A DNA stretch of 64,000 nucleotides from an uncultured Thermodesulfobacteriota bacterium (GCA_964510775.1 CAZEBZ010000002.1:8447-72446), one strand, 5' to 3'. Shown: positions 6,534 to 24,111, numbered from the stretch's first letter. Notes: generated by a model from the sequence alone, not told the origin. Numbers and translations are program-made.

Positions 6534-8163
6534 ATAAAACTACCCTGTTCTTGCCTCTGCGTTTCGCCTGATACATGGCAGCATCGGCTCGGTAGATAAG
6601 GTCGTCAGTATTACGAGCGTCTCCTGGAAACTCGGCGATACCTATGGATATAGTAGGTGACGGACAAGACATCTCTTGGGGAAACTCCAGAAGCTCCACA
6701 TCAGACCTGATCCTCTCGGCAATGACCTCAGAATCAAGCTTCGAGGTATGGGAGAGTATGACGGCAAACTCCTCACCGCCGTAGCGCACAACAACGTCCA
6801 CTGTCCTTACGGCGTCTTTTATGGCCAGGGAAATACGTTTAAGCACATAATCGCCTGCAAGGTGGCCCCAGTTGTCGTTAAAGGCCTTAAAATCGTCAAC
6901 ATCTATTATGAAGACGGTAAAGCTGTCTCGCTGCCGCCTTACACGCTCGGCCTCCTCAAAGAGCCTGTTCTTGAAGAACCTTCTGTTAAAGAGTCCCGTA
7001 AGAGGGTCTGTCATGGAGACTGTCTTGAGCTTCTCGCTCATACTGTAGTAGGCCCCCCTCTCAAGGGCTATTGTGGCGTAGTTTGAGATGGAGAGAAGGA
7101 CAAAGAGGTCTTGAGATGTAAAGAGACCCTCTCCGCTCTTATCGGCAAGGTTTATAACCCCTATGACACGGTCATAGAGTTTCAATGGAGCGGAGATAAA
7201 AGAAGGCGTCTTGTAAGCCCGTTGGCTTTTTCTCCAAGGCAGCTCCTTATCGATATCCTCAATCACCATGGGCTCGCCCTTTTGCGCAGTGCGCCCCGTT
7301 ATACCCTGCCCCATTTTTATGCGCACACTTGTGGCGATGCTCTTTTCCAGCCCCCTTGATGACTTTATACGAAAGGCCTTGCTGGCGTTATCAAATATCA
7401 TCAATGAAGCGCGCTCAGCACCTATAAGCTCACTGGATTTGGAGAGTATTATCTCGTAGAGTGAGTCCTTATCTATTACCGTAGAGATACTCTTGTATAT
7501 ATCAAGAAGACCCTTGAACTCCCCGTTGTAAGAGAAACCTGCCGCAGAGGGAGTCTCATCACTTCGCGGTAGAGACGTATTGTGAAGGGATTCGAGAAAA
7601 GGCACGGCCAATCTCTTAAAGGTATCGGGAAGGCTGAAAAGTGAGTCTGTCGCGAGACTCTTTACACGCCCCTTAAGGCGCTGCCGCGTCTCTCTGTCAA
7701 GGCCGTTGAGACCCTTGACAAAGGCCTCGTCTTCACGGCCCCTCATATAGGTTCTGCCTCCCATAAGCACATAAGAGCGGCCCTTTAAGAAGACGGGCAT
7801 GGCAAAGGCGAACATATTGCCGTGACACTTGAATATATGGGTATTACCGTCATGAAGAGCCCGCAGAGCGGCCTTGTTGTAATCAGAGCTGCAAAGAGCG
7901 CGAAGCTCCTCCTTGGAGCTCATCTGATGAGCCACCTCGTCATTAAAGCTCGGAGGCACGATAAAGGCCCCCTTCTCATCATTAAGGGATACTGAGACGC
8001 CAAGAAGCCTTGAGAGACCGTCCTGAAATTCGCTCCACCTCGAGGCATTAAAACCCTCAAGATGCACAGGCGACCCGTCCTTGCTGCTGCCAGCCTCGTT
8101 TCCTATATTGGAGACTCTTTCCATATTCAAAAAAACCTCAATACCATAACAGTATTGAGGCAT
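6523..8163 (-). CDS. GAF domain + GGDEF diguanylate cyclase
   Basis: 546 aa. The active-site motif is RYGGEEFAV, with a DxLTGLxNRR I-site/linker region. The central domain is GAF. The gene overlaps the downstream ATPase-kinase gene by 11 nt. Confidence 0.85.
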   Translation of the reverse strand: MPQYCYGIEVFLNMERVSNIGNEAGSSKDGSPVHLEGFNASRWSEFQDGLSRLLGVSVSLNDEKGAFIVPPSFNDEVAHQMSSKEELRALCSSDYNKAALRALHDGNTHIFKCHGNMFAFAMPVFLKGRSYVLMGGRTYMRGREDEAFVKGLNGLDRETRQRLKGRVKSLATDSLFSLPDTFKRLAVPFLESLHNTSLPRSDETPSAAGFSYNGEFKGLLDIYKSISTVIDKDSLYEIILSKSSELIGAERASLMIFDNASKAFRIKSSRGLEKSIATSVRIKMGQGITGRTAQKGEPMVIEDIDKELPWRKSQRAYKTPSFISAPLKLYDRVIGVINLADKSGEGLFTSQDLFVLLSISNYATIALERGAYYSMSEKLKTVSMTDPLTGLFNRRFFKNRLFEEAERVRRQRDSFTVFIIDVDDFKAFNDNWGHLAGDYVLKRISLAIKDAVRTVDVVVRYGGEEFAVILSHTSKLDSEVIAERIRSDVELLEFPQEMSCPSPTISIGIAEFPGDARNTDDLIYRADAAMYQAKRRGKNRVVLYEK

Positions 8164-8514
8164 CCTTTACCCCGGCCAAGAGACCCTTCATGAGCCCCTT
8201 GATTCACAGATGCGTAACAAAAAGCCAACCCCTTCCTGCCAGGAACTACAATCATTTTTCACGAAGATTTTACCATAGAAATTGGTTTTTTACAATAAGT
8301 TTATTCTGCCTCTGGTTCGCCGCCGCGTTAAGCCTGCTTCTCAGATAGCGGTATGGATATGATTATGAGAGATAAGAACCGAGGGGAGAGCGAAGGGACA
8401 AAACACACCTCAGAAAGGCAGGCCGCATACCCGCCAAGGGATAAAGATATAACCGCCCCTAAACATATAAGAGAGCTTAAGGGCGAGATTAGAAGAAGAG
8501 CGTTACGGCAGGAA

Positions 8515-9441
8515 TCAGGTCTTTTCCAGGGCCTCGGTGCCTGCCTGCCCCTTAGCTGGACGCTCCTTCCATAAAAGAAGCACAGGGCTTGCTATGAACA
8601 TTGATGAATAGGTTCCAACCATTACGCCGAGAAAGAGGGCGAGGGCAAAGTCATGAATAACCTCGCCGCCAAAGAGAATCAGGGCCGCAAGGACTATAAG
8701 CGTAGTAAGAGAGGTAACAACGGTTCTGCTTAAGACCTCATTGATACTCCTGTTCACAAGGGAATAAAAGTCTTCATGCTTCTTTTTGTGAAGGTTCTCA
8801 CGTATTCGGTCAAAGACAACAACACTGTCAGAGAGAGAATATCCGGCGAGGGTGAGCAGCGCCGTCACAATAAGGAGGTTCATCTCCTTGTGCATGATAA
8901 AGAGCAGACCAAGCACTACGAGGACATCGTGGAATGTGGCGATAACAGCGGCCACGCCGAAACGGAACTCAAACCTCCATGCAACATAAAAGAGTATTCC
9001 AAGCAGGGCTATGCCAATGGCCTTAATTGCATCTGTTTGAAGTTTCTGACCAACTGTTGGCCCAACCTCTGAGGTGGAGTCAATAGTAAAGGGATTCTCG
9101 GCCATATCGGCGCGAAAGACGTCTGCTATGGCCCTTGATGTAGCCGCGAGATCTCCATCAGAGGATTTAAGGCGTACAAGTAATTGAGTGGGGTCTGAGA
9201 GCTCCTGCAGGTTGGCGTCCTCAAAACCTCCCCCCGAGAGCAGCCCTCTCACCTTCTCAAGGGCAACGGGGCCCTCGAACCTGAACTGAATAGAGACACC
9301 TCCGGAAAAATCTATACCCAGCCTCGCCATGCCCGTTGGGATAGCTATGGCCGCCACAATCCCCACAAGGGCAAAGATAGCCGATACAACGAAGGTAACC
9401 TTTCTAACACCGAGAAAATCTATCTTTGTATTTCCAAGCAT
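8515..9441 (-). CDS. secF: Protein translocase subunit SecF
   Basis: 308 aa polytopic membrane protein with SecF family conservation, located immediately downstream of secD. Confidence 0.9.
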   Translation of the reverse strand: MLGNTKIDFLGVRKVTFVVSAIFALVGIVAAIAIPTGMARLGIDFSGGVSIQFRFEGPVALEKVRGLLSGGGFEDANLQELSDPTQLLVRLKSSDGDLAATSRAIADVFRADMAENPFTIDSTSEVGPTVGQKLQTDAIKAIGIALLGILFYVAWRFEFRFGVAAVIATFHDVLVVLGLLFIMHKEMNLLIVTALLTLAGYSLSDSVVVFDRIRENLHKKKHEDFYSLVNRSINEVLSRTVVTSLTTLIVLAALILFGGEVIHDFALALFLGVMVGTYSSMFIASPVLLLWKERPAKGQAGTEALEKT

Positions 9442-9480
9442 ATCTTCCTTTTCATGCCGTTTAAAATCCGTTGAAGACGA

Positions 9481-11067
9481 TTATATACTTAATTTTTTAA
9501 GCCTCATCTTCTCACTCTGAATATCAAAGGCCACCTTTGTACCAATAAGGGAGGTAAAGAGATTTGTAAGTATACCGAGACTTAGCGTCACGGCAAAGCC
9601 CTTTATCGGCCCCGAACCAAACTGAAAGAGGACAAAGGCAGTAATCAGCGTCGTTACATGAGAGTCAACGATAGTCCACCAGGCCCTGTCATACCCTGAA
9701 TTAATGGCCGAGCGCGGCGTATGCCCACCCTTGAGCTCCTCTTTTATCCTCTCGAAAATCAGGACGTTAGAGTCAACACCCATACCTATTGTAAGTATCA
9801 TGCCCGCTATGCCGGGCAGCGTCAGCGTGGCGTGAATCCATGCCATGGCGCCAAGGAGCATTATCATATTAAGGAATATGGCAAAGTCCGCGACAAGCCC
9901 CGATGCCCTGTAGTAGACAATCATAAAGAGCAGCACAAGGGCTCCGCCAAGCACGGCGGCGCGAAGGCCGGCTCTGATAGAGTCCGCTCCAAGGGTTGGC
10001 CCGACTGTAACGTTCTGAATTATCTTAACCGGCGCAGGCAGCGCTCCTGCACGAAGGACTATGGCAAGATCAACGGCCTCCTCGCGAGTAAAACCGCCGC
10101 TTATCTGCGCCCTGCCGCCTGCTATCGCCTCTCTTATAACAGGGGCCGAGTGTACGTTGCCGTCAAGGACAATGGCAAAGCGTCTGTCCACGTTCTCCGT
10201 AGTTACGCGCTCGAATATCTTAGCGCCAGTCGCGTCAAAGGTAAGTGAGACGTAGGGCTCGTTGAACTGCTGGTCAAAGGCCACACGGGCATCAGAGAGT
10301 GAGCTTCCCGAGAGGATAACATCTTTCTTGATAAGATAGGGCATCCTTACGGCGGGCTCTCCGTTAACGGATTTTCTAATCTGATAGAGTATCTCAGAAC
10401 CTGGCGGTACGCCCTCTGCGGCGGCCTTCTGCGGGCTCATAGACTCGTCAACAAGACGGAACTCCAGCACAGCCGTCTTTCCTATGAGATTTATGGCACG
10501 CTCTGTGTCCTTAAGGCCCGGCAGCTGTATGACTATCTCGCTCTTACCCTGCTTGTGTATAAGGGGTTCAGCTACGCCGAACTTGTCAATCCTGTTTCTT
10601 ATAGTCTCAAGTGCCTGCGAGTGCGCCCAGTCTTTTATCCGCTTAACCTCTGCTTCATCAAGGGAGTAGGAGAGCTCTTTGCCCGCCGTGCCTGACTCAG
10701 TAAAGACCTGCGCCTCGTCTTTTACGAGCTCTACAATCTGACGGCGCGTATTCTCATCAAAAAAACCAATGCTCATGCCGGAAATCCCCTTACGCTTTAC
10801 ATAGCGATAGGGTATGTTCTTTGTACGCAGCTCTCCCTCAATGGAATTTACAAGCCTCTGCGTATAACTCTCAACGGCCTTGTCCTTGTCTACATCAAGA
10901 ACAAGATGCATCCCCCCCTGCAGATCAAGTCCCAGTGTTATTTTCGGGATATTATCACTCCAGAAAGCCGGCAATAGACCCGATAGCGGCGTTGAGGGCA
11001 AAAATAGCGCTATAGCTACTATGGAAAATAAACCGAGTAAGATAAGTCGTACCAGTATACTCTTCAT
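9481..11067 (-). CDS. secD: Protein translocase subunit SecD
   Basis: 528 aa with a SecD N-terminal periplasmic domain and a C-terminal 6-TM bundle, in the conserved yajC-secD-secF order. Confidence 0.9.
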   Translation of the reverse strand: MKSILVRLILLGLFSIVAIALFLPSTPLSGLLPAFWSDNIPKITLGLDLQGGMHLVLDVDKDKAVESYTQRLVNSIEGELRTKNIPYRYVKRKGISGMSIGFFDENTRRQIVELVKDEAQVFTESGTAGKELSYSLDEAEVKRIKDWAHSQALETIRNRIDKFGVAEPLIHKQGKSEIVIQLPGLKDTERAINLIGKTAVLEFRLVDESMSPQKAAAEGVPPGSEILYQIRKSVNGEPAVRMPYLIKKDVILSGSSLSDARVAFDQQFNEPYVSLTFDATGAKIFERVTTENVDRRFAIVLDGNVHSAPVIREAIAGGRAQISGGFTREEAVDLAIVLRAGALPAPVKIIQNVTVGPTLGADSIRAGLRAAVLGGALVLLFMIVYYRASGLVADFAIFLNMIMLLGAMAWIHATLTLPGIAGMILTIGMGVDSNVLIFERIKEELKGGHTPRSAINSGYDRAWWTIVDSHVTTLITAFVLFQFGSGPIKGFAVTLSLGILTNLFTSLIGTKVAFDIQSEKMRLKKLSI

Positions 11068-11139
11068 ACAATAAGACCTGTCCTTAAAAGCCCCTTATCG
11101 GGCTGCTTTTCATAATCAAAATATGAGAAAAATATCCCC

Positions 11140-11466
11140 TTACTCTCCCTTGACCCTTCTCTTGGTGATGGCGCCTTTCTCTACCTTGACCCTCACGTTA
11201 TCGGCTATCTCAATGGTGATAACATCCTCGGAGACGCCGTATACCCTGCCGTGGAGCCCGCCTGTAGTAACAACAAAATCGCCCTTGGCCGTCTTGGAGA
11301 GCATCTCCTTATGGGCCTTGGCCCTCTTCTGCTGAGGCCGTATCATGAGAAAATAAAATATGGCAAAGAGTACTATAATAGGGGCGAAACTCATCATACC
11401 CCCGATTCCTCCCGCAGGCGCTGCGTCAGCGGCAAAGGCCACGGCAACCGGTGCTATAGTCAACAA
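11140..11466 (-). CDS. yajC: Preprotein translocase subunit YajC
   Basis: 108 aa. The segment FLMIRPQQKRAKAHKEMLSKTAKGDFVVTTGGLHGRV is a YajC signature. Confidence 0.85.
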   Translation of the reverse strand: MLTIAPVAVAFAADAAPAGGIGGMMSFAPIIVLFAIFYFLMIRPQQKRAKAHKEMLSKTAKGDFVVTTGGLHGRVYGVSEDVITIEIADNVRVKVEKGAITKRRVKGE

Positions 11467-11496: not shown

Positions 11497-13685
<2,189 letters not shown>

Positions 13686-13736
13686 ATTCGATATATTATT
13701 AGCACAAGAATCAAGTATTGTATAACACAAGACCAC

Positions 13737-14157: not shown

Positions 14158-15366
14158 TTAAAAAGACTTCTTTAGCCTCGCCCCGGGGTAATAATGGCGA
14201 AGGATCTCTCTGTAGGAAGCCCCTGCCTCGGCCATTCCCCGCGCGCCCCACTGCGACATTCCCACGCCGTGGCCAGAGCCGCGGCCCTTAAAGATAAAGA
14301 GCCCGCCATCACGCCTTATGGTAAAGACCGCGCTTCGAAGTATTGAGTACCCTATGATGCGTCTAAGCTCCTCGCCTCTAATAGTCAGGCTCCTGCCGCT
14401 CTTATCAGTAAACCTCACGCCTCGCACCCTGCCGCCTGATGTGAGGTCCTCCGCAACAACCCTTCGGAGAGCCCCAATCCTAAGGCCCTCACCGCGCAGG
14501 ACCCTCGTAAAGATAGGCGCAGGCAGGGCAAAATCCCATCTGTAGCGCGGGTCCGCGTCACCGTCGTGAGGGCTTGGGACGGACCTCAGGTATGGATACT
14601 CATTCGCCCCGCCGCCTCTCCATATATCACTTGCCGCGTCAGTACGCCCGCCTCCGTTGGAGTGATAGACAGTAAGGGCAGGAGCGCCGTTATAAAAAAG
14701 AACCTCGCCGCGGCACTCTCTTACGGCCTCTAAAGAGGCGGCATCCTCAGAGGCGGCGCCGCGGTAGACCTGCCCCGCTACTGTACCCTCTATATCAAAA
14801 GGGCCCGGCGCGGCACGCTCCATGCGGTACAGGACATAAGTCCTCGCCGCAACGGCCTGGGCCTTAACGGCCTCACGGGGCCAGGCAGATGAGATCTCGT
14901 AATTAATTATACCCGCTACGTAATCTTCTATAGCAAGCCTGTTTACAACAAGAAGCCCCATTGAGGACGCGGCATCGGCATAAAGCACAAGTACGCCCCT
15001 GTATGGCCTCTTGTTAAGGTATATAAACTCGCCGGGTCTGGCGGTAAGGGTCAGAGGAAGAGACCTCTCACTATTATTTAAGAAGACCCTGTCTCTTCCG
15101 GCGAGCCTGCGTATAACGAGTTCACCGCCGTCAAGGCTCGCCCGACCGCCTCTTACCGCGCCCCTTACAGTAAGAACATCGGCCCCTCGAAGTACAAGGA
15201 CACGAATGTCTTTGCCTGCCTCTGCGCCGCGAGGCGCGAGCGTAAGGGCAAAGAAAGACATAAGCAAGATAAGAAAAATTTTTTTCCTATTCATGGACAA
15301 AATAGACAGATAAGACGCGCCAGCCGCAGTAGAGACTCCATCAGTCAGGACGGCAGTGATTAACAC
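14158..15366 (-). CDS. SpoIID/LytB-domain protein (peptidoglycan lytic transglycosylase / amidase enhancer family)
   Basis: 402 aa with a signal peptide. SpoIID signature blocks are present (AIEDYVAGIINYEISSAWPREAVKAQAVAARTY and VYHSNGGGRTD). Confidence 0.75.
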   Translation of the reverse strand: MLITAVLTDGVSTAAGASYLSILSMNRKKIFLILLMSFFALTLAPRGAEAGKDIRVLVLRGADVLTVRGAVRGGRASLDGGELVIRRLAGRDRVFLNNSERSLPLTLTARPGEFIYLNKRPYRGVLVLYADAASSMGLLVVNRLAIEDYVAGIINYEISSAWPREAVKAQAVAARTYVLYRMERAAPGPFDIEGTVAGQVYRGAASEDAASLEAVRECRGEVLFYNGAPALTVYHSNGGGRTDAASDIWRGGGANEYPYLRSVPSPHDGDADPRYRWDFALPAPIFTRVLRGEGLRIGALRRVVAEDLTSGGRVRGVRFTDKSGRSLTIRGEELRRIIGYSILRSAVFTIRRDGGLFIFKGRGSGHGVGMSQWGARGMAEAGASYREILRHYYPGARLKKSF

Positions 15367-15725
15367 CTGCAGAGCTCTCGAAGATAGTCCTTTAGCTCCT
15401 CTATCTCTTTATCAGACAATGTCTTACCAAAGGCAGGCATGAGCGTAGACTTGCTTGTAGCAGCGCCGCCGCTGTGTATGACGTCTATTATCTCTTCGTC
15501 AGTGAGCTTTTTCATCTCATAGGCGCTGCTGTGGTCGCGAGGTTCAACGGGCTGACTCTCAGTAGCATTGGGGCCGTCACCACGCCCCTCAAGGCCGTGG
15601 CACTGGGCGCAGTAAAAGGCGTAATTGTCCGGCGCCGAGGCGCCGATTGCGGAGGATGTCAACAAGACAGATAACATCATCGGCATAAAAAAAATAATAG
15701 AGGAAAAAACTTTTTTTCTCACCAC
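15360..15725 (-). CDS. Monoheme class I c-type cytochrome
   Basis: 121 aa with a signal peptide, a single CAQCH heme-binding motif, and a distal Met context (TLMPAFG). Confidence 0.7.
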   Translation of the reverse strand: MVRKKVFSSIIFFMPMMLSVLLTSSAIGASAPDNYAFYCAQCHGLEGRGDGPNATESQPVEPRDHSSAYEMKKLTDEEIIDVIHSGGAATSKSTLMPAFGKTLSDKEIEELKDYLRELCRC

Positions 15726-15747
15726 TTACACTCCGCGGTTTTTTCTA

Positions 15748-16416
15748 TTACTTAAGGGCCGATACATAAGATGCAAGGGCCTTCATCTGCGCCTCTGTTG
15801 CCAAACCCTCATATACAGGCATCCTGCTTACAGGGGTAAATGCCCGCTGATTCCTAAGATAGGCGTATACCCACTGCGGGTTCAATCTATCACGTGTGCC
15901 CTCAAGAGAGGGCCCCGATAGCCCGCCGGCGAGAGAGCCGCGCACATTAACGAGATGACAGCCGTAACAGGCGAACTTCTTAATAAAGGAAATCCTTCCC
16001 CTTACATTTACACCGGGACGTATACCCGCCTCAGGGACAAGCCCCTCGGCCTTAAGGCTCATGAGATAAGAGGCTACGGATTTTGCCATACCTGCCTCAA
16101 GGCGGGGGTGGTCGGCGCTATTCTTTTTTTCAAGAGAATTATAGGCCAGCGGCCTTATGGGCAGAGGATTAGCGAGCCAGCGCTCCAAAAAACCCTCTCT
16201 GAACTTGCTTCCCGCGTACCATAAATCAGGGCCTTTCTTAGCGAGTACGGCAGCGCGACTAAGCTTACCAGAAGGCCTCTCTACGCTGTGACAGCTGCCG
16301 CAGCCCTTTGCGGTAAAGGCCTTGCCCCCCATAGACTCTGAAGAACGCGCCGCAGAGGGAGATAAAAAAACGGACAATATGATTATGAGAAAGAAAGAAA
16401 CAGCAGTGGTTTTCAT
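15748..16416 (-). CDS. Diheme c-type cytochrome
   Basis: 222 aa with a signal peptide and two CxxCH motifs (CGSCH and CYGCH). Confidence 0.7.
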   Translation of the reverse strand: MKTTAVSFFLIIILSVFLSPSAARSSESMGGKAFTAKGCGSCHSVERPSGKLSRAAVLAKKGPDLWYAGSKFREGFLERWLANPLPIRPLAYNSLEKKNSADHPRLEAGMAKSVASYLMSLKAEGLVPEAGIRPGVNVRGRISFIKKFACYGCHLVNVRGSLAGGLSGPSLEGTRDRLNPQWVYAYLRNQRAFTPVSRMPVYEGLATEAQMKALASYVSALK

Positions 16417-16567: not shown

Positions 16568-18130
16568 TCAGAGTATCTCGAACCTGTCTTGCTGAAACCT
16601 CTCCACAGCTACTATTGTTACTTTTTTTCCAAATTTATCCTCAAGATCCCCTAAGATGGCCGGTGTATCTTGCAGGCGCTCGGCGATAAGGGGGCTGCAG
16701 TAGAGCGTAGGCGTCTTTTTATCACAAAAATCTCTCATAAGAGACCTGTAAATATCCATCATTACCGTATGCTCGGACTTTATAAAACCAACGCCCTCAC
16801 AGGTGGGGCATGTCTTGCAGAGGGACTGTATAAGATTATTACGAAGACGCTTTCGCGTCATCTCCACAATCCCAAGGTCTGAGATGCGAAGTATATTCGT
16901 ACGGGCGCGGTCGGCTTTAAGGGCCTCGCGAAGGGCATTATATACCTTGTCTCTATCAGGGGCCTTTGCCATGTCAATAAAATCAATGACGATAATACCG
17001 CCGATATTGCGAAGCCTCAAGTTTCTTACAACAACATCTACGGCCTCAAGGTTGGTCTTGACTATCGTATGCTCGGAGTCCTTCCTGCCTACGTACTTAC
17101 CGGTATTTACGTCTATGGCCGTGAGGGCCTCCATCTGGTCTATTATAAGAAAACCGCCAGAGCGGAGCCATATCTTATTCTCAAGTGCGCCGTCAATCTC
17201 AATCTCAATGCCGTAACGCTCGAAAACACCCTCAGACCCCTCATAACGCTCCAGCTTTTTCACCAGAGCAGGCATAACCTCTCTTGTAAAGTTTCTTACC
17301 TTCTCAAACTCATCTTCTCTATCAAGAACAAGCCTCTTAACACTTGATGAGAACTTATCTCTCGCCGTCCTGAGGCTAAGGTCAAGCTCCTCGTGTAGAA
17401 GAGAGGGCGTTGGAGCCGTATCTTTTTTTTCGTCAATAGACCTCCAGAGCCTTACAAGATAGTCCATATCAGACTTCAGATCCGCCTCGGAGGCGCCCTC
17501 GCAGACCGTCCTTATGATAAAACCATAACCATCAGGACGCATGCCCTGCACTATCTTCTTAAGGCGGCGCCGCTCTCTGTCGCTGGAAATTCGCCTTGAT
17601 ACGGCCACCCTGTCATAGGAGGGCATAAATACGAGATACCTGCCGGCAAGTGAGATATAGGAGGAAACCCTCGCCCCTTTGCTGCCCATTGGCTCTTTCG
17701 TAACCTGAACGACTATGTCCTGGCCGTCTTTTAATATATCCTGTATCCTGAGGGTCTTGTACCTGCCCTTTGCGCCGCCACGACCACCGCCGCGGCCGCC
17801 TCTCCCCCCGCCTGCCCTGCCCTTGCCCTTAGCCCTGTCATCACCGCTATTATCAGGGAGGCTGTCCTCGGCCTGATCATCAACGTCGTCAAGGGTCTCC
17901 TGAATATCAGAGACATGAAGAAAGGCGGTGCGCGCAAGGCCCACGTTAATAAAGGCGGACTGCATACCGGGCAGAACCCTTGCGACCCTGCCCTTGTAGA
18001 CATTGCCAGTCACCTTACGGCCCTCGGGACGCTCTACATAAAGCTCGGCGAGGGAGCCGTTCTCAGTAATAGCCACCCTCGTCTCAAAGGGGTTGGAATT
18101 TACGAATATTTCTATCTTTTTTTCTCTCAT
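16568..18130 (-). CDS. rng: Ribonuclease G/E family endoribonuclease (Rng/CafA)
   Basis: The N-terminal S1 domain is followed by the RNase E/G catalytic core (DHH-like, zinc-link CKTCPTCEG). The start is placed at the internal Met of MREKKIEIF. The protein contains a Gly/Arg-rich insert. Confidence 0.85.
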   Translation of the reverse strand: MREKKIEIFVNSNPFETRVAITENGSLAELYVERPEGRKVTGNVYKGRVARVLPGMQSAFINVGLARTAFLHVSDIQETLDDVDDQAEDSLPDNSGDDRAKGKGRAGGGRGGRGGGRGGAKGRYKTLRIQDILKDGQDIVVQVTKEPMGSKGARVSSYISLAGRYLVFMPSYDRVAVSRRISSDRERRRLKKIVQGMRPDGYGFIIRTVCEGASEADLKSDMDYLVRLWRSIDEKKDTAPTPSLLHEELDLSLRTARDKFSSSVKRLVLDREDEFEKVRNFTREVMPALVKKLERYEGSEGVFERYGIEIEIDGALENKIWLRSGGFLIIDQMEALTAIDVNTGKYVGRKDSEHTIVKTNLEAVDVVVRNLRLRNIGGIIVIDFIDMAKAPDRDKVYNALREALKADRARTNILRISDLGIVEMTRKRLRNNLIQSLCKTCPTCEGVGFIKSEHTVMMDIYRSLMRDFCDKKTPTLYCSPLIAERLQDTPAILGDLEDKFGKKVTIVAVERFQQDRFEIL

Positions 18131-18239
18131 TTTCACCTTATGGCAGAGTATTACCTGCAATACAGAGGCAATGGTCTACTACGGAGCAAAGGCCGCAGTA
18201 GAGTGCCGCTAATAATAAAAAAGCGCGCAAACGCCTTAT

Positions 18240-20789
18240 CTATCGAGAGGATCTTGTCTTGAGGATGGGTATTAGAGAGGCTTCCGGCAAGGGGATATGG
18301 AAGACATGGAGAAGCACATCACAAGGCCTTATAGCCGGCCCGTCGCCGCGCGCAAGGACAAGCCTCACCTGCAGGCCCTTTATACGCTCTAACTCAGCGA
18401 CTTGTTCCTTAATGTCTACTTCTCTTAATTTCTCGCCTTTTTTAATTATCGCCGGAAATGTACCACTTGAATCAAAATCTTTTATATACCCATCGATCCT
18501 ATCGGAATCAATATAAAAACCACGGAGGGACTCTTCAAAATTTAAGAGATACTCATTTTTTTCTATCATATCAGAGCCAGACCCAAGTTTCAAGGCCTCT
18601 CTCTCATTACAGGCCTCGAAGAACTTGAGGCCAAGGGGAGAGTTTCTGTTCAGCACGGCGATAATATCAGAGGTGGGAATAGGCGCGCCGAGAAGGGTTA
18701 TCTCCATGAATTCAACAAGACTCTCCGTGCCAAGAGGCAGGGGCGGAGAAAAGCTCAGCTTTGGCATGGGATGAAAGCCTGATGAGTACTTCACCTTAAA
18801 TTCCGCGCGCCTTATAAGGCGTTTTATGACATTGGCCAGCTCAAGGTGGCCTAAAAACCTCAGATCGCCCTGCTTTGAGAACCTAAGCCTCACCTTGTAT
18901 GACGGCAGATTCTCACGCACCCTCACAGAAGCCGCCTCGGGCACGGGAGTATCTGTAATGATGTTTTTTACGGCCTTATGGTCGCATACTCCGCAGACCG
19001 TACAGGCCGAGTCGCGGCAATCAGGCGTCTGCTCGGCAAGTATGGCTTTTTCGTACTGTGCCCGCAAAAACCCCTTGTCCACGCCCATTGATAGATGCTC
19101 CCAGGGCAGTATCTCAGAGAATTCACGCCTTCTCGATGTATAAAAGTCCGCGCTAATACACTCTTCATCGAGGGCCTGCTCCCAGAGGGTATAGTTGAAC
19201 TTCTCACCCCAGCCGTCAAACCTGCAGCCCTTCTCATAAGCCCGCAGAATTACCGGTGCGAGCCTGCGGTCGCCTCGGGCAAAGATACCCTCCAGTTTAC
19301 TCATAAGAGGGTCGTGCCACTTAAAATCAATGCTCTGCCCGCGAAGCCGCTTTCGCAAGATTCCCTGCAGACGCCGCAGCTCATCAGGTGCGGCTTGGGG
19401 CTCCCACTGAAATGGAGTAAAGGGTTTTGGGATAAAAGAAGAGACAGAGACACTTATGCGCGGGCCTCCCCTCCCGCCCCTTGCCGCGGCCTTTGCCGCC
19501 CTCTTAACACGGCCTGCAAGCTCGGCTATCTCCAGCACGTCTTCTTCTGTCTCCGTAGGCAGGCCTATCATAAAATAGAGCTTAACAGACTTCCAACCAA
19601 GGGCGAATATCTCACTAACGGCGCGAAGCAGGTCTTCTTCTGTAATGCCCTTATTAATCACATAACGAAGCCTCTCAGAGCCTGCCTCAGGTGCAAGGGT
19701 AAAACCTGTCTTTCTGACTTTTTTTATCTCCGCGGCAAGAGCCGTACCAAGGGTTCCCACACGGAGCGAGGGCAGCGACAGCGCGATTCTATCATGGACA
19801 AAATCCTTCATAAGCCCCTGCATAAGGGGCTCAATGGCGCTGTAATCACCTGCGCTGAGGCTAAGAAGAGAGACATCATCATAACCCGTATTCGCCAGGG
19901 CCTCTCTTATAATCTCCATAACCACGGCAGGAGAGCGCTCCCTTATGGGCCTGTAAATCATACCCGCCTGACAGAACCTGCACCCCCGTGTACAGCCGCG
20001 GTTTATCTCCACTGTCACACGGTCGTGAATAGTCTCCGTAAAGGGCACAATGGGCCTTACAGGCCTGCTGCTATCCATGTCCATGACTATCCTTCTCTCA
20101 AGAGGGGCGAACTCGGGGTGATGCGGAGTTATCTCTCTTACCCTCTTGTCCTCATTATAGGAGACCTCAAAGAATGCGGGCACATAGACGCCCTTTACCC
20201 CCGCGAGGGCCTTAAGTATATCGCCACGCTTATCACCTCTTTTTCGGCCCTCCAAAACCACAAGGGCCATCTCAAGGGCCGCCTCCTCGCCGTCTCCAAG
20301 TAAGAAGGCATCAAAAAAGGCCGCTACAGGCTCGGGGTTGCACGTAAGGGGGCCGCCTCCAAAGACAAAAGGGGTAGACTCGTCCCTATCAGCGGCTAAA
20401 AAGGGCACGCCGCCAAGCTCAAGCATCATAAGGACATTTGTATAAGAGAGCTCGTACTGAAGAGAGAAGCCGATGATATGAGAGGCAGATAGGGGCAGCC
20501 CCGACTCAAGCGTGGTAAGGGGAATACTCTTCTCACGCAGCAGGGCCTCCATATCCGTCCAGGGGGCAAAGACACGCTCGCAGGCAATATCGTCGCAGCT
20601 GTTAAGCCCCTGATAGAGTATCTGCATACCAAGATGGCTCATACCAACCTCGTAGCTGTCAGGAAATGCCAATGCGTACCTCAGCGCCACTGTATTGAGG
20701 TCTTTCTTAACTGAGTTGACCTCGCCGCCTATATACCTTGAGGGCCGCCTCACAAGGGGCAGGAATTTTTTAATATCAATATTTTCCAT
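18240..20789 (-). CDS. B12-binding-domain radical SAM protein (TIGR03960-like) fused to a C-terminal DUF2344/TIGR03936-like domain
   Basis: 849 aa. The radical SAM motif is CTRGCRFC (Cx3Cx2C), preceded by a B12-binding-like N-terminal region. The C-terminal roughly 250 aa resemble the radical-SAM-associated DUF2344 protein that usually accompanies this family next to rng. The family names are assigned from memory only. Confidence 0.65.
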   Translation of the reverse strand: MENIDIKKFLPLVRRPSRYIGGEVNSVKKDLNTVALRYALAFPDSYEVGMSHLGMQILYQGLNSCDDIACERVFAPWTDMEALLREKSIPLTTLESGLPLSASHIIGFSLQYELSYTNVLMMLELGGVPFLAADRDESTPFVFGGGPLTCNPEPVAAFFDAFLLGDGEEAALEMALVVLEGRKRGDKRGDILKALAGVKGVYVPAFFEVSYNEDKRVREITPHHPEFAPLERRIVMDMDSSRPVRPIVPFTETIHDRVTVEINRGCTRGCRFCQAGMIYRPIRERSPAVVMEIIREALANTGYDDVSLLSLSAGDYSAIEPLMQGLMKDFVHDRIALSLPSLRVGTLGTALAAEIKKVRKTGFTLAPEAGSERLRYVINKGITEEDLLRAVSEIFALGWKSVKLYFMIGLPTETEEDVLEIAELAGRVKRAAKAAARGGRGGPRISVSVSSFIPKPFTPFQWEPQAAPDELRRLQGILRKRLRGQSIDFKWHDPLMSKLEGIFARGDRRLAPVILRAYEKGCRFDGWGEKFNYTLWEQALDEECISADFYTSRRREFSEILPWEHLSMGVDKGFLRAQYEKAILAEQTPDCRDSACTVCGVCDHKAVKNIITDTPVPEAASVRVRENLPSYKVRLRFSKQGDLRFLGHLELANVIKRLIRRAEFKVKYSSGFHPMPKLSFSPPLPLGTESLVEFMEITLLGAPIPTSDIIAVLNRNSPLGLKFFEACNEREALKLGSGSDMIEKNEYLLNFEESLRGFYIDSDRIDGYIKDFDSSGTFPAIIKKGEKLREVDIKEQVAELERIKGLQVRLVLARGDGPAIRPCDVLLHVFHIPLPEASLIPILKTRSSR

Positions 20790-20821
20790 CTGCTCTTAAC
20801 AATCTCCTTCTTTATACTCTC

Positions 20822-22483
20822 TTAATGGGAAGAAGGCGCACATACGCCGCACCTTGTGCATCCGGGGAGGCAGGGCCCTGTAAAGAGCCCCTTCTTTGCC
20901 CTCTCGTACTCAGACCATAAATACTCTTTCTTAACACCAAAATCTATAATATCCCAGGGAAGGATCTCTTCTTTAGCCCTCTCTCTGTATACAGAGGCCT
21001 CCATCAAGGCGCGCCTCTTCTTTATGCTCCTCTTAAGGCCCGTCTCTGCAGCCTCAAGAACAAGCGCGCCCGCCCGACTATCGGCGCGAGCAACGTAGGC
21101 CTGAAAAAAGGCCGCGCCAAGAGGCATGGAGTTAAGGCGCACTCCCTTTAAGGGGCGAAGCCCCGCTCTTATAATACCAAGCCTTCTTTTTAATATTTCC
21201 TCAGTCTCAAGGGTTGACCACTGAAAAGGGGTAAAGGGTTTTGGTATAAAGGGGTTAAGGCTAATGGTAATCTCCGCGCCGCTGAATAACTTATGTATCT
21301 TCGCGATAAGCTCCACTATGGCTGCGGCGTCTTCATCAGTCTCTGTTGGCAGGCCAAAGAGAAAGTATAACTTCATCCGCCCAAAACCCGCCTCCCTGAC
21401 CAACTCTACTGCGCCAAGGATATCGGCCTCAGAAAGGCCCTTATTTATTACGAGCCTCATTCTCTCAGAGCCCGCCTCTGGAGCAAGGGTAACTGTCCTG
21501 TACCCCGCCCTCTTTAGCATAGATAGCTTTTCCTTATCAAGGACATCAAGGCGCATGGAGCTAAGCGTCACCTTTGCCCCTGCCTTCAGGCCTTCCTCAA
21601 CAACAGCCGTGAGGCATGAGTAATCTGATACGGCCGTACCAACGAGTCCTACCTTGCCGGCAGCCTTGGCACCCTCCCGCACGGCAGAAAAGACCTGCTT
21701 TGGCTGACGCTCTCTCTCTGGCAGACAGACAAAACCAGCTGCGCAGAACCTGCATCCCCGCCCGCAGCCCCGCTCTATCTCTATTAACGAGGCCTCCTTA
21801 AAGGCGGCAAGAGGCGTGCGTATAAAATTCTGCGGAATAAAAAAACCCTTAAGTGATTTATTTTTCTTCGCCCTCACCCTCGACTTTACACCCTCACCGG
21901 GCTTTACGGCTTTTAAGACATCATCACTATACTCAACCTCATATAAAGAAGGAACAAAGGTAAAATCAAGCCTCTCTAATGCCTTTAAGAGGGTTGGTTT
22001 TGTTGCCTTTGTCTCAAGGAGGTCTCTGTAAACCTCCATAAACTCCTCTACCGCCCCCTCGCCCTCTCCGGCGATAAAGATATCCATAAAGTCCGAGATA
22101 GGCCAGGGGTTTAAGGACGGAGCTATACCGCCTGCGAGAATAAGGGGCTGCGGCGCCTGCCGCTTCGAAGCTAATGGCGATAAGTCTGCGAGTCTCAGGA
22201 TAAGCGGGATATTAAGGTAATCCTCCTCAAAAGAAATGGAGAAGGCTACGATATCAAAATCCTTAAGAGGCCTCTGTGATTCAAGGGTAAAGAGCGGCGT
22301 ACCAGGGCCTTCAAAGCTGGCGATATCAACCTTATCAGGCAGAAAGACACGCTCGGCGAGCACCCAGTCCATGGAGTTAAGGAGCTTGTAAACTGACTGA
22401 AAACCAAGATTACTCATAGCAGGCGAGTAATGATTGGGGTAGACAAGGGCTACACTTATACGCCCGCCCCGGTCTTTTCGCAC
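20822..22483 (-). CDS. B12-binding-domain radical SAM protein (paralog of the upstream gene, no DUF2344 domain)
   Basis: 553 aa with CGRGCRFC (Cx3Cx2C). It is collinear with the N-terminal 550 aa of the 849-aa neighbour; for example LAPEAGSERMRLVINKG aligns with LAPEAGSERLRYVINKG. Confidence 0.7.
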   Translation of the reverse strand: MRKDRGGRISVALVYPNHYSPAMSNLGFQSVYKLLNSMDWVLAERVFLPDKVDIASFEGPGTPLFTLESQRPLKDFDIVAFSISFEEDYLNIPLILRLADLSPLASKRQAPQPLILAGGIAPSLNPWPISDFMDIFIAGEGEGAVEEFMEVYRDLLETKATKPTLLKALERLDFTFVPSLYEVEYSDDVLKAVKPGEGVKSRVRAKKNKSLKGFFIPQNFIRTPLAAFKEASLIEIERGCGRGCRFCAAGFVCLPERERQPKQVFSAVREGAKAAGKVGLVGTAVSDYSCLTAVVEEGLKAGAKVTLSSMRLDVLDKEKLSMLKRAGYRTVTLAPEAGSERMRLVINKGLSEADILGAVELVREAGFGRMKLYFLFGLPTETDEDAAAIVELIAKIHKLFSGAEITISLNPFIPKPFTPFQWSTLETEEILKRRLGIIRAGLRPLKGVRLNSMPLGAAFFQAYVARADSRAGALVLEAAETGLKRSIKKRRALMEASVYRERAKEEILPWDIIDFGVKKEYLWSEYERAKKGLFTGPCLPGCTRCGVCAPSSH

Positions 22484-22914
22484 CGCGCCTCTTTCAAGGG
22501 CGAGAATCTTTCTCGCCTTGTCCTTTAGTTTCCAGCTTATGGCCCTCTACTCCCTTTGTCTTTACAGTACATGCTCCGCTAAGGCGCAGACTTACATAGA
22601 ATATTATATATATTATCACATAGGCTAATAAAAAGGTGTCCTTCAAAGCAGAGACCCCCTGCGGGGGTCTCTCAGGAAGAATCAATGGACAGGTTTGTCG
22701 CCTGCAAGAAAGGATCGTACGACGGCGGGCCGCCTTTTTTTTTACTAAGATAAGGCGGTGGTATAGTGACAAACAAACACATCATCCCGAAGGGGGTCTC
22801 TGCCTTGAAGACAACAGAAGGGCATGCAAAGCAATAATAGAATGCCCTCCTGTCAAGCCATAAAAAAACTCTTATTCTCCTTATATAATAAGGGCTACTG
22901 CGATAATCCCGCGC

Positions 22915-24111
22915 CTAATCCGCCTGCCTGCGAAGAAAGGTGGGAGTATCGTATATATCCTCATCATCTGTCTTATGCCCCGCGTACTGGCCAAGCCTCT
23001 TTATCTCGCCTGAATTAAAGTTCAGAGACTTTACCTTGTCCTGACGTATTACCGTAGGCACATCAAGGTTCTCTACAAGTACGCGCGCCGCGGGAATATG
23101 GTCAACAGGAGCGGCCTCCTCGGCGGCCTCGCCAAAACCAGTAGCAATTACAGTAACACGTACCTCTTCACCCATGGTCTCATCAATAACAGCGCCGAAG
23201 ATAATATGGGCGTCATCATGTGCCTCTTCATGAATAAGGCTCGATGCCTCGTTCACATCATGTATACTCATATCCGATGACCCTGTAATGTTAAGCAGCA
23301 CACCTCTTGCGCCGTTAATGGAAATATCCTCAAGAAGGGGTGATGAGATGGCCTTTCTCGCCGCGTCCATGGCACGCTGCTCACCGCTTGCCGTGCCGCT
23401 TCCCATAAGGGCCTGGCCCATCTCGCTCATAATTGTCTTCACATCGGCAAAGTCAACGTTTACAAGCCCAGGCACGGTGATGACATCAGAGATGCCCTTT
23501 ACGGCCTGAAGCAAAACCTCATCGGCCTTCGCGAATGCGTCGGCAAGTGTAGTGTTCTTGCATGATACGGAGAGCAGCCTCTGGTTAGGTATGGTTATCA
23601 CCGTATCCACCATCTCCGTAAGCTTTGCAAGACCTTCCTCGGCCTGCCTCATCTTTTTTGAGCCCTCAAAGGAAAAGGGTTTTGTAACGACAGCCACTGT
23701 GAGCGCCCCTGTCTCACGAGCTATCTCCGCTATTACGGGGCTCGCGCCTGTGCCAGTGCCGCCGCCCATGCCGGCGGTAATAAAGACCATGTCCGCACCC
23801 GATAGGCTCTCGAGAATAGCGTCACGGCTCTCAATAGCGGCGCTCCTGCCCACATCGGGGCTCGCGCCTGCGCCAAGACCCTTTGTAAGGGTAGTGCCAA
23901 TCTGCAGATTCACACCTGCGCGCGACCTGCCAAGGGCCTGTACATCTGTATTGGCCGCGAGGAACTCAACGCCCTGCAGACCAAAGTCGATCATTGTATT
24001 TACGGCGTTGCCGCCGCAGCCTCCGACACCAATGACCTTAAGCCTCGCGCCGGCATTAAAGCCGTCGTCAAATCGAATATCCATCTGCCCATCCTTTGTA
24101 AAATTCATCAC
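22915..24111 (-). CDS. ftsZ: Cell division GTPase FtsZ
   Basis: 398 aa with the tubulin signature GGGTGTG and a T7 loop, at the terminal position of the dcw cluster. Confidence 0.95.

What the first reader, a model, noticed from the sequence alone, without database searches (positions are those of the whole stretch)
18240..22483. Tandem paralogous B12-binding radical SAM enzymes, one fused to DUF2344, directly upstream of rng
Two adjacent genes (849 aa and 553 aa) both carry the Cx3Cx2C radical SAM motif (CTRGCRFC and CGRGCRFC) and are collinear over about 550 aa, for example LAPEAGSERLRYVINKG versus LAPEAGSERMRLVINKG. The longer one has an extra C-terminal ~250-aa domain that I recall as the radical-SAM-associated DUF2344/TIGR03936 protein, which usually occurs as a separate gene beside a TIGR03960 radical SAM gene and an RNase E/G gene. 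The substrate of this widely conserved module is unknown. Here it appears duplicated and partly fused, and its fixed linkage to an endoribonuclease suggests an RNA-directed modification.
Basis: partly seen in the sequence, partly recalled or inferred. Interest (0 to 1): 0.55.

Follow-up and report, generated by a model that had tools for sequence, protein, structure and literature searches.

The report
Two ancient radical SAM paralogs abutting
Two related iron-sulfur "radical SAM" enzyme genes sit side by side between the cell-division gene ftsZ and an RNA-cutting enzyme gene; they are not a fresh duplication but two old, uncharacterised gene families that happen to touch in this lineage, one carrying a disabled pseudouridine-synthase-like domain that points to an RNA substrate.

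Summary
ORF 18240-20789(-) (849 aa, "L") is a TIGR03960 radical SAM protein fused to TIGR03936/DUF2344. ORF 20822-22483(-) (553 aa, "S") is a 34%-identical paralog without DUF2344. An Rne/Rng ribonuclease gene follows 79 nt after L. The interpretation needs correcting in three ways. (1) The fusion is ordinary: all 120 best relatives of L are fused. (2) S is not a local duplicate. It scores below the TIGR03960 cutoff and belongs to a separate clade (50/50 bootstraps) found in many phyla. Where flank is available, that clade usually lies directly after ftsZ (23 of 42 loci) and lacks L, DUF2344 and rng downstream (28 of 31 loci). Only the window's lineage has the ftsZ-linked S gene next to the rng-linked L module. 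(3) The RNA-directed idea gains support. DUF2344 has a TruA-type pseudouridine-synthase fold, its profile hits only TruA/Pus1 chains in the PDB, it is basic, and it lacks the catalytic Asp. The rSAM core is closest to cobalamin-dependent class B methylases, then to MiaB/RimO. The substrate and chemistry remain unknown, and I found no paper characterising either clade. L is a catalogued but unstudied family; the S clade has no curated family model in NCBIfam.

The parts
20822..22483 (-). S gene, 553 aa. It is a TIGR03960-like radical SAM protein of the ftsZ-linked S clade and has no DUF2344 domain.
   Evidence: ORF. TIGR03960 394 bits, below the cutoff of 462. Pfam Radical_SAM_N2 149 bits and Radical_SAM 71 bits. 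Falls in the S clade of the tree.
21743..21766 (-). S radical SAM cluster motif CGRGCRFC (C240, C244, C247).
   Evidence: The three Cys are invariant in all 88 clade members.
20840..20872 (-). S C-terminal Cys motif CLPGCTRCGVC (C538, C542, C545, C548). It is a candidate auxiliary metal or Fe-S site.
   Evidence: Invariant among close S relatives. Absent from 14 of 50 S-clade members.
20790..20821 (-). 32-nt S-L intergenic spacer containing AAGGAG upstream of the L start codon.
   Evidence: Co-transcription is inferred, not shown.
18240..20789 (-). L gene, 849 aa. It is a TIGR03960 radical SAM protein fused to TIGR03936/DUF2344.
   Evidence: AlphaFold model with pLDDT 90.2 and pTM 0.92.
20709..20789 (-). 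L-specific N-terminal segment (aa 1-27, containing RPSRYIGGE). S lacks it.
   Evidence: P16, R18, Y19 and G21 are at least 90% conserved in L and absent or variable in S. The TIGR03960 alignment of S starts at model position 28.
20178..20630 (-). L N-terminal Rossmann-like domain (Radical_SAM_N2), the one labelled 'B12-binding'.
   Evidence: Pfam 193.6 bits. The fold is nearest to cobalamin-dependent rSAM enzymes.
19515..20009 (-). L radical SAM core, including CTRGCRFC at 19971-19994.
   Evidence: Pfam Radical_SAM 76.6 bits; motif confirmed.
18984..19019 (-). L Cys motif CRDSACTVCGVC (C591, C596, C599, C602), in the linker before DUF2344.
   Evidence: The first three Cys are 100% conserved in L and the fourth 97%. 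The region has low pLDDT in the metal-free model.
18258..18896 (-). DUF2344/TIGR03936 domain (aa 632-844). It has a TruA-like pseudouridine-synthase fold without the catalytic Asp.
   Evidence: HMMs; model, pLDDT 89.6; Foldseek; profile against PDB; conservation; pI 9.2.
16568..18160 (-). Rne/Rng family endoribonuclease gene (rng-like), 530 aa.
   Evidence: TIGR00757 507 bits, above the cutoff of 326; Pfam RNase_E_G 341 bits.
22915..24111 (-). ftsZ, the last canonical gene of the dcw cluster and the usual upstream neighbour of S-clade genes.
   Evidence: TIGR00065 426 bits. ftsZ lies upstream of S in 23 of 42 loci with enough flank.
22484..22914 (-). 431-nt ftsZ-S intergenic region with a GC-rich hairpin (GAGACCCCC-GCA-GGGGGTCTC). 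It may be a transcript boundary.
   Evidence: Sequence. No Rfam family at gathering threshold. The pattern scans found no more sites than in shuffled sequence.

Best explanation
Two anciently diverged members of the TIGR03960 radical SAM superfamily lie next to each other because, in this lineage, the 3' end of the dcw cell-division cluster (…ftsA-ftsZ-S) abuts a separate conserved module (L-DUF2344, then rng). L most likely modifies RNA. Its C-terminal DUF2344 is a basic, TruA-type pseudouridine-synthase-fold domain that has lost the catalytic aspartate. I infer that it binds and presents an RNA nucleotide to the radical SAM active site. The catalytic part has the architecture of cobalamin-dependent class B radical SAM enzymes: a Rossmann-like N-domain, a CxxxCxxC barrel, and an extra 4-Cys site. 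The likeliest chemistry is therefore radical-mediated methylation, or another C-H functionalisation, of an rRNA or tRNA (precursor) that RNase G also processes. S has the same catalytic scaffold but lacks both the RNA-presenting domain and the L-specific N-terminal motif, and its core is basic. I think it is an independent enzyme with a different substrate or recognition mode whose expression is tied to the dcw cluster, as is the rRNA methyltransferase RsmH at the other end of that cluster. Shown here: the domain identities, the clade split, the gene contexts, the fold relationships and the absence of the catalytic Asp. Inferred: RNA as the substrate, methylation as the chemistry, cobalamin use, and the independence of S from L.
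For: Paralogy is 34% identity, E = 2e-89. In an NJ tree of 88 proteins over 570 columns, the S|L split appears in 50/50 bootstraps; identity is 41% within S, 49% within L and 34% between them. In the L clade, 37 of 38 loci have DUF2344 fused or adjacent and 22 have rng downstream. In the S clade, ftsZ lies upstream in 23 of 42 loci with at least 1.5 kb of flank, and 28 of 31 loci with at least 3 kb downstream have no L gene there. The conserved neighbours of S are ftsZ, ftsA, ftsQ, murB and ddl. The same S-L-rng order occurs in relatives only about 50% identical (L001-L004, L006). For the DUF2344 model (pLDDT 89.6), the top 44 Foldseek PDB hits are all pseudouridine synthases, with PUS3 and TruA at E about 1e-5 and TM 0.5-0.56. 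A DUF2344 sequence profile hits only TruA/Pus1 chains in the whole PDB, best E = 0.003, and aligns G687 to the G of TruA's GVHA loop. Pfam already groups DUF2344 with the pseudouridine-synthase clan (PMC7955657). No Asp is conserved in that loop across 132 diverse domains, while H648, R657, R661, G671, P674, G687 and E693 are 94-100% conserved. Median pI is 9.2 for DUF2344, 5.5 for the L core and 8.0 for the S core. The full-length L model has pTM 0.92. Its nearest solved structures are MgmA (E = 3e-16), TsrM, CysS, OxsB and TokK, followed by MtaB, MiaB and RimO. RsmH heads the same dcw cluster.
Against: No experiment or paper identifies a substrate. The closest structural neighbour, MgmA, methylates a protein, and RimO also acts on a protein, so the catalytic scaffold does not itself indicate RNA. 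Cobalamin binding cannot be read from sequence, and the Pfam B12-binding hit is below threshold (23 bits against 32.1, S only). AprD4, another neighbour, has the same fold but does not use it for methylation (my own recollection). I could not inspect model coordinates, so whether the conserved face of DUF2344 points at the active site is unknown. Linkage to ftsZ or rng is only guilt by association, and 19 of 42 S loci have no ftsZ nearby. The tree is neighbour-joining, unrooted, and built from only 88 sequences.
Confidence: 0.55

Rival explanations
1. This is a recent local tandem duplication of the rng-linked radical SAM gene, after which one copy lost (or never gained) DUF2344.
For: The two genes are adjacent, on the same strand, 32 nt apart, and collinear over about 570 aa.
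Against: Identity is only 34%. S groups with proteins from Desulfobacterales, Geobacteraceae, Myxococcales, Rokubacteria, Poribacteria, Ignavibacteria and Negativicutes, not with its neighbour L (50/50 bootstraps). Most S-clade genes have no L gene downstream (28 of 31 loci).
Confidence: 0.04
2. L modifies a protein and not RNA, for example a ribosomal protein, RNase G itself or another RNA-associated protein. In this reading DUF2344 is a protein-docking or chaperone-like module.
For: The best structural neighbour is MgmA, a protein glutamine C-methylase. RimO, which modifies ribosomal protein S12, is also among the neighbours. Loss of the catalytic Asp shows that DUF2344 no longer performs its ancestral RNA chemistry.
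Against: The fold and profile matches of DUF2344 are exclusively to RNA-binding pseudouridine synthases. The domain is basic (pI 9.2) with invariant Arg and His residues. MiaB and MtaB, which act on tRNA, are equally close neighbours of the core.
Confidence: 0.2
3. In this lineage S and L work together as a heteromeric enzyme or as consecutive steps on one substrate, sharing L's DUF2344 domain. The adjacency would then be functional and not accidental.
For: The S-L spacing of 32 nt has no convincing terminator, whereas a 431-nt gap with a hairpin separates ftsZ from S. The S-L-rng order is retained in relatives about 50% identical. At least 17 further S/L pairs appear to share contigs, judged from matching contig lengths.
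Against: Across other phyla, S occurs without L nearby and L without S, so neither needs the other as a neighbour. One relative, L008, has 3.2 kb between the two genes. There is no evidence of interaction.
Confidence: 0.15
4. S acts on the cell envelope or the divisome (a lipid, a peptidoglycan precursor or a division protein) and has nothing to do with RNA.
For: S is the terminal gene of the dcw cluster in 23 of 42 loci. In Selenomonas it precedes genes of the Cu-oxidase_4 (YfiH/PgeF) and Ala_racemase_N (YggS-like) families. A loose precedent is that the radical SAM enzyme QueE affects division in E. coli (PMC4974570, abstract listing).
Against: The dcw cluster also carries RsmH, an rRNA methyltransferase, so dcw membership does not imply an envelope function. 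The S core is basic (pI 8.0), which is compatible with a polyanionic substrate. There is no direct evidence either way.
Confidence: 0.2

Closest known systems
TIGR03960 / TIGR03936 (DUF2344) module next to Rne/Rng: a catalogued, uncharacterised 'radical SAM plus radical-SAM-linked protein' pair
   Same: L meets both curated HMM cutoffs and is followed by an Rne/Rng gene. The fused form is the common architecture among its relatives.
   Different: Nothing distinguishes L itself. S differs: it falls below the cutoff, has no DUF2344 partner, lacks the N-terminal RYIGGE segment, and has a different typical neighbour, ftsZ.
TruA/Pus1/Pus3 family pseudouridine synthases
   Same: The DUF2344 domain has the same fold (Foldseek E about 1e-5, TM 0.5-0.56). 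Its profile-to-sequence match covers the catalytic-loop region and the following beta-alpha-beta unit.
   Different: The universally conserved catalytic Asp is missing; the aligned position is a mostly conserved Pro685. No PseudoU_synth_1 Pfam hit appears even at E <= 10. The domain has its own invariant H, R, R, G, P, G and E set and is attached to a radical SAM enzyme.
Cobalamin-dependent class B radical SAM enzymes (MgmA, TsrM, CysS, TokK, OxsB)
   Same: An N-terminal Rossmann-like domain followed by a CxxxCxxC radical SAM barrel. These are the best structural neighbours, with MgmA at E = 3e-16 and TsrM at 2e-13.
   Different: Sequence identity is only 12-16%. HMM scores are far below every characterised family's cutoff, for example 45 bits against 360 for the MgmA model TIGR04014. 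L and S carry an extra C-terminal 4-Cys motif, and L carries a TruA-like domain. Cobalamin use is untested.
Methylthiotransferases MiaB / MtaB / RimO
   Same: They are radical SAM enzymes acting on tRNA or a ribosomal protein, with a three-module layout (N-domain, barrel, C-terminal substrate-binding domain). They are the second tier of structural and sequence neighbours.
   Different: The N-domain has no conserved three-Cys auxiliary cluster; only two partly conserved Cys occur there. There is no TRAM domain. HMM scores are 23-31 bits against cutoffs of 251-357.

Membership tests
TIGR03960 family B12-binding radical SAM protein | Whole-protein score at or above the curated NCBIfam cutoff (462.3 bits) | tested here: met
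   L scores 777.3 bits. S scores 394.4 bits and therefore does NOT meet it; S is a relative, not a member by the curated rule.
TIGR03960 family B12-binding radical SAM protein | CxxxCxxC radical SAM motif plus N-terminal Radical_SAM_N2 domain | tested here: met
   Both proteins have them: Pfam 193.6 and 149.2 bits for Radical_SAM_N2, 76.6 and 71.2 bits for Radical_SAM. Motifs confirmed.
TIGR03960 family B12-binding radical SAM protein | Partnership with TIGR03936/DUF2344, fused or as the adjacent gene | tested here: met
   L is fused, and 37 of 38 L-clade loci have DUF2344 fused or adjacent. S has none of its own, and 28 of 31 S loci lack an L/DUF2344 gene downstream.
TIGR03960 family B12-binding radical SAM protein | Actual cobalamin binding | not testable with these tools
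   Only fold similarity to cobalamin enzymes is available. The Pfam B12-binding hit is sub-threshold (23 bits against 32.1) and occurs in S only.
TIGR03936 / Pfam DUF2344 (radical SAM-associated protein) | HMM score above the curated cutoffs | tested here: met
   TIGR03936 133.6 bits against 71.9; PF10105 125.5 bits against 23.8; L aa 632-844.
Pseudouridine synthase, TruA family | Pseudouridine-synthase fold | tested here: met
   The top 44 Foldseek PDB hits are all pseudouridine synthases. All 7 profile hits are TruA/Pus1 chains.
Pseudouridine synthase, TruA family | Conserved catalytic aspartate in the loop preceding G-V-H-A | tested here: not met
   The alignment to T. thermophilus TruA puts G687 on the G of GVHA, so the position two residues upstream is Pro685, which is 83% conserved. 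That the catalytic Asp lies two residues before this Gly is my own knowledge of the RTD-x-GVHA motif, not a tool result. No Asp reaches even 40% frequency in that region across 132 domains.
Pseudouridine synthase, TruA family | Match to the Pfam PseudoU_synth_1 model | tested here: not met
   Six DUF2344 domains scanned at E <= 10 hit DUF2344, with no pseudouridine-synthase model among the hits.
Methylthiotransferases (MiaB/RimO/MtaB) | N-terminal three-Cys auxiliary cluster, C-terminal TRAM domain, and HMM score above cutoff | tested here: not met
   Scores are 23-31 bits against cutoffs of 251-357. No TRAM hit. The N-domain has only two partly conserved Cys.
Characterised class B radical SAM methylases (e.g. 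MgmA, TIGR04014) | HMM score above the family cutoff | tested here: not met
   45 bits against a cutoff of 360 for both L and S. The resemblance is at fold level only.
Rne/Rng family ribonuclease (neighbouring gene) | TIGR00757 score above cutoff | tested here: met
   506.8 bits against 325.95. The RNase G equivalog NF008689 gives 495.7 bits, below its cutoff of 594, so 'rng' is a family-level call.

The most novel reading that the evidence does not exclude
The S clade is an unrecognised, phylum-spanning radical SAM family. It is the true terminal gene of the dcw division cluster in many anaerobes and carries out a growth- or division-coupled modification of RNA or of a divisome or envelope component. 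The sister L clade uses a catalytically dead TruA domain to deliver an RNA nucleotide to a cobalamin-type radical SAM site, producing a new carbon-methylated or otherwise modified rRNA or tRNA nucleoside coupled to RNase G processing.
Probability: 0.25. Interest if true: 0.75.

Novelty: new variant of a known kind. Interest (0 to 1): 0.45.

Why it matters
TIGR03960/DUF2344 is one of the large, widely distributed radical SAM families with no assigned substrate; the DUF2344 domain alone has 8,301 cluster representatives at 50% identity. This work yields two usable points. First, DUF2344 is a TruA-type domain without its nucleophile. That gives a concrete and testable hypothesis: RNA presentation to a class-B-like radical SAM site. 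It suggests simple experiments, namely RNA pull-down with the stand-alone domain and nucleoside LC-MS of knockouts. Second, what databases lump together as 'TIGR03960-like' is really two old clades with different genomic partners, ftsZ/dcw for one and DUF2344/rng for the other. Annotation transfer between them is therefore unsafe, and the ftsZ-linked clade deserves its own family model and study.

Tried and rejected
(1) Literature searches on DUF2344, TIGR03960, TIGR03936, PF10105, PF19864, 'radical SAM-linked protein', radical SAM plus RNase G plus rplU, radical SAM plus ftsZ plus dcw, and 'downstream of ftsZ' found no functional study. The only useful item was a remark that Pfam groups DUF2344 with pseudouridine-synthase halves.

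(2) A word-indexed homolog search with the DUF2344 domain alone returned only 5 proteins. It was replaced by the exhaustive HMMER search.

(4) I looked for a cobalamin or SAM riboswitch, or any Rfam element, near the genes and found none.

(5) Promoter and terminator pattern scans gave no more sites than shuffled sequence, so they say nothing about operon structure.

(6) My first guess was that the conserved 'YSxGFHP' loop corresponds to TruA's 'RTDxGVHA'. The profile alignment superseded it by placing the GVHA glycine at G687. Under either mapping no catalytic Asp is present.

(7) I searched all held DNA for a truA gene to run a direct profile-profile alignment and found none.

(8) I looked for a conserved gene downstream of S across phyla and found none. 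The only recurring case is a Cu-oxidase_4 (YfiH/PgeF family) plus Ala_racemase_N (YggS-like) pair in a few Negativicutes loci.

Full report
**1. What is in the sequence**

All genes in this part of the window are on the minus strand. One search lists an 849-aa ORF at 18240-20789 (here called L) and a 553-aa ORF at 20822-22483 (here called S).

- L contains CTRGCRFC and S contains CGRGCRFC. The quoted collinear peptides are present.
- BLASTP of L against S gives 34% identity over about 570 residues, E = 2e-89. The paralogy is real.
- The gaps are 32 nt (S to L), 79 nt (L to the next gene) and 431 nt (ftsZ to S).

**2.

- L scores 777 bits on NCBIfam TIGR03960 (cutoff 462) over aa 8-605. It scores 133.6 bits on TIGR03936 (cutoff 71.9) over aa 632-844.
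- In Pfam, L hits Radical_SAM_N2, Radical_SAM and DUF2344.
- S has the same two N-terminal Pfam domains. It scores only 394 bits on TIGR03960, below the curated cutoff. Its alignment starts at model position 28, and it has no DUF2344.
- No characterised radical SAM family comes close. The best alternatives score under 66 bits against cutoffs of 250-750.
- The downstream gene at 16568-18160 is an Rne/Rng family ribonuclease (TIGR00757 507 bits against 326). It falls just short of the RNase G equivalog cutoff.
Neither protein falls in a characterised family, and the C-terminal domain is DUF2344.

**3. The fusion is ordinary**

- All 120 best relatives of L in a 5.8-billion-protein collection carry DUF2344 fused. 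JGI already names them 'radical SAM family uncharacterized protein/radical SAM-linked protein'.
- An exhaustive HMMER search with the domain alone finds 8,301 cluster representatives at E <= 0.001. They occur both as stand-alone proteins of about 200-300 aa and as fusions of about 840-930 aa.
- In Clostridia and Acidimicrobiia loci the domain is a separate gene immediately after the L-type gene.

**4. The 'duplication' is two old modules touching**

I fetched 80 loci from species-representative genomes with an S-clade alignment, plus five metagenomic or genomic loci. I annotated all of them with phmmer. Proteins fall into two groups according to whether they score higher against S or against the N-terminal 615 aa of L.

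*The tree*
- A neighbour-joining tree of 88 proteins over 570 well-aligned columns recovers the S|L bipartition in 50 of 50 bootstrap replicates. The internal branch length is 0.31.
- Mean identity is 41% within S, 49% within L and 34% between them.

*Gene context follows the split*
- 37 of 38 L-clade genes have DUF2344 fused or adjacent, and 22 have an Rne/Rng gene just downstream.
- No S-clade gene has its own DUF2344.
- Of 42 S loci with at least 1.5 kb of upstream flank, 23 have ftsZ directly upstream, often within 100 nt.
- Of 31 S loci with at least 3 kb downstream, 28 have no L gene there.
- Clustering of neighbour ORFs shows that the conserved company of S is ftsZ (26 loci), ftsA (23), ftsQ (21), murB (9) and ddl (5). 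Nothing is conserved downstream across phyla.

*Where the S clade occurs*
- Judging by the record titles, S-clade members come from Desulfobacterales, Desulfuromonadales/Geobacteraceae, Syntrophaceae, Myxococcales, Nitrospirota, Rokubacteria, Poribacteria, Ignavibacteria, an acidobacterium and Negativicutes.
- In Selenomonas the S gene precedes a Cu-oxidase_4 (YfiH/PgeF family) gene and an Ala_racemase_N (YggS-like) gene. From my own knowledge, that pair follows ftsZ in many Gram-positives.

*Where S and L are adjacent*
- Only the window's own lineage has S and L adjacent. This lineage consists of 'Deltaproteobacteria'/Thermodesulfobacteriota MAGs, with relatives down to about 50% identity.
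- The shared order there is ftsZ-S-L-rng-(cytochromes c)-(DUF2065)-SpoIID. One relative, L008, has 3.2 kb between S and L.
- Matching contig lengths suggest at least 17 further S/L pairs on shared contigs. This is indirect evidence.

The arrangement is therefore a conserved, lineage-level juxtaposition of a dcw-terminal gene and an rng-linked module. It is not a duplication of the latter.

**5. What DUF2344 is**

*Fold*
- An AlphaFold model of aa 620-849, built from a 49-sequence alignment, is confident (pLDDT 89.6, pTM 0.81).
- Against the PDB, its top 44 Foldseek hits are all pseudouridine synthases: PUS3, TruA, Pus1, Cbf5 and TruB. The best E is 8.5e-6, with TM 0.5-0.56.

*Sequence*
- A sequence profile of 51 mostly stand-alone DUF2344 proteins hits only seven PDB sequences at E <= 10. 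All are TruA/Pus1 family, led by T. thermophilus TruA at E = 0.003.
- Pfam already treats DUF2344 as one half of a pseudouridine-synthase domain (PMC7955657). The fold relationship is therefore on record and is not new.

*Catalytic residue and surface*
- The alignment puts DUF2344's invariant G687 on the glycine of TruA's G-V-H-A.
- The catalytic Asp of TruA-family enzymes lies two residues before that glycine, in the 'RTD-x-GVHA' motif (established knowledge). In DUF2344 that position is Pro685, conserved in 83% of sequences.
- Across 132 diverse domains no Asp reaches even 40% frequency in this region. H648, R657, R661, G671, P674, G687 and E693 are 94-100% conserved.
- Pfam's PseudoU_synth_1 model does not match even at E <= 10.
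- The domains are basic: median pI 9.2, with 74% above 8.

I read this as an RNA-binding, probably nucleotide-presenting, module that no longer makes pseudouridine. That reading is an inference.

**6. What the catalytic part resembles**

- The full-length L model has pLDDT 90.2 and pTM 0.92. The high pTM implies confident relative placement of the three modules. Only the Cys-rich linker (aa 590-610) and one loop have low confidence.
- The nearest solved structures are cobalamin-dependent class B radical SAM enzymes: MgmA (E = 3e-16), TsrM (2e-13), CysS, OxsB and TokK. AprD4 also appears.
- The next tier is the methylthiotransferases MtaB, MiaB and RimO. These are also the only sequence-level PDB hits.
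- Both paralogs carry an extra Cys motif after the core: CRDSACTVCGVC in L and CLPGCTRCGVC in S. In the L clade the first three Cys are 100% conserved. In the S clade 14 of 50 members lack the motif entirely.
- This could be an auxiliary [4Fe-4S] or zinc site, but that is untested.
- The N-domain has no conserved three-Cys cluster and there is no TRAM domain, so neither protein is a methylthiotransferase.
- Cobalamin binding cannot be decided here.

**7. Differences between S and L beyond DUF2344**

- L has a conserved N-terminal segment (P16, R18, Y19, G21: 'RPSRYIGGE') that S lacks.
- About two dozen other positions are L-specific or S-specific.
- The L core is acidic (median pI 5.5) and the S core is basic (median pI 8.0).
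- One reading is that S contacts a polyanionic substrate directly, while L delegates this to DUF2344. This is speculative.

**8. Context and regulation**

- The dcw cluster runs from rsmH (39663-40595, TIGR00006 351 bits) through ftsI to ftsA and ftsZ. The ORFs between ftsI and ftsA match the usual mur/ddl/ftsQ order by size and position, but I did not run them against HMMs.
- After rng come two c-type cytochromes, a SpoIID/LytB protein, queA, tgt, secD and secF.
- An rRNA methyltransferase (RsmH) sits in the same division cluster. Linkage of S to dcw is therefore compatible with an RNA role.
- No Rfam family occurs near the genes. Pattern scans for promoters and terminators do not exceed shuffled expectation.
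- The 431-nt ftsZ-S spacer contains a strong GC hairpin, while S-L is only 32 nt with an AAGGAG upstream of L. S-L(-rng) may therefore be one transcript separate from ftsZ. This is inferred.

**9. Verdict**

The RNA-directed idea is strengthened, and the 'duplicated and partly fused module' idea is replaced by 'two ancient paralogous families abutting'.
- L is a routine member of a catalogued but functionally unknown family.
- S belongs to a sister clade that matched no NCBIfam or Pfam model of its own. Its typical place is the 3' end of the dcw cluster.
- I found no publication on either clade.
- Interest is moderate. Nothing here is surprising in kind, but the family is large and unassigned. 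The dead-TruA reading and the S/L split both give concrete experiments.

Noticed in passing
window 17756-17827 (-), inside rng: The Rne/Rng protein carries a Gly/Arg-rich, RGG-like insertion (GKGRAGGGRGGRGGGRGGAKGRYK, aa 112-135). Orthologs in L001 (491 aa) and L003 (497 aa) are about 35 aa shorter than the window's 530-aa protein, so the insertion may be specific to the window's close relatives.
   Followed up: no
window 22484-22914: The ftsZ-S intergenic region is unusually long (431 nt). It holds a perfect 9-bp GC hairpin (GAGACCCCC-GCA-GGGGGTCTC, around 22650-22672) and an AT-rich stretch before S. It has no Rfam match. It may be a terminator plus promoter separating S-L-rng from the dcw transcript.
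   Followed up: partly
window 39663-40595 (-) and 20822-22483 (-): The dcw cluster is bracketed by RsmH, a 16S rRNA m4C1402 methyltransferase, at its head and the S-type radical SAM gene at its tail.
   Followed up: partly
window 11497-13736 (-): queA and tgt, the queuosine tRNA-modification genes, lie a few genes downstream of rng on the same strand. The same SpoIID-queA-tgt order occurs in L003 and L004. This is probably conserved synteny, not a functional link.
   Followed up: no
window 43819-44208 (-): Bacterial RNase P RNA class A, 308 bits, full length.
   Followed up: no
window 46014-48623 (-): An 869-aa protein resembles the A-adding tRNA nucleotidyltransferase model NF041569 (917 bits) but falls well below its cutoff of 1440. 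An RNase HI-like gene lies at 44332-44946.
   Followed up: no
loci L027, L028, L030, L036 (Rokubacteria); L022, L029 (Desulfuromonadales); L026, L033 (Syntrophaceae); L044, L045: These S-clade proteins end before the C-terminal Cys motif that the window's S and every L-clade protein keep. The putative auxiliary metal site therefore appears dispensable in parts of the S clade.
   Followed up: partly
locus L020 (Selenomonas caprae) 7941-11238: In this Negativicutes genome the S-type gene is followed directly by a Cu-oxidase_4 (YfiH/PgeF family) gene and an Ala_racemase_N (YggS-like) gene. No ftsZ lies within the 8 kb upstream.
   Followed up: partly
window 15360-16416 (-): Two small c-type cytochrome genes (SoxX-like and cbb3 subunit III-like, both weak hits) sit between rng and SpoIID. 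They are also present in L001 and L002 but absent from L003 and L004.
   Followed up: no
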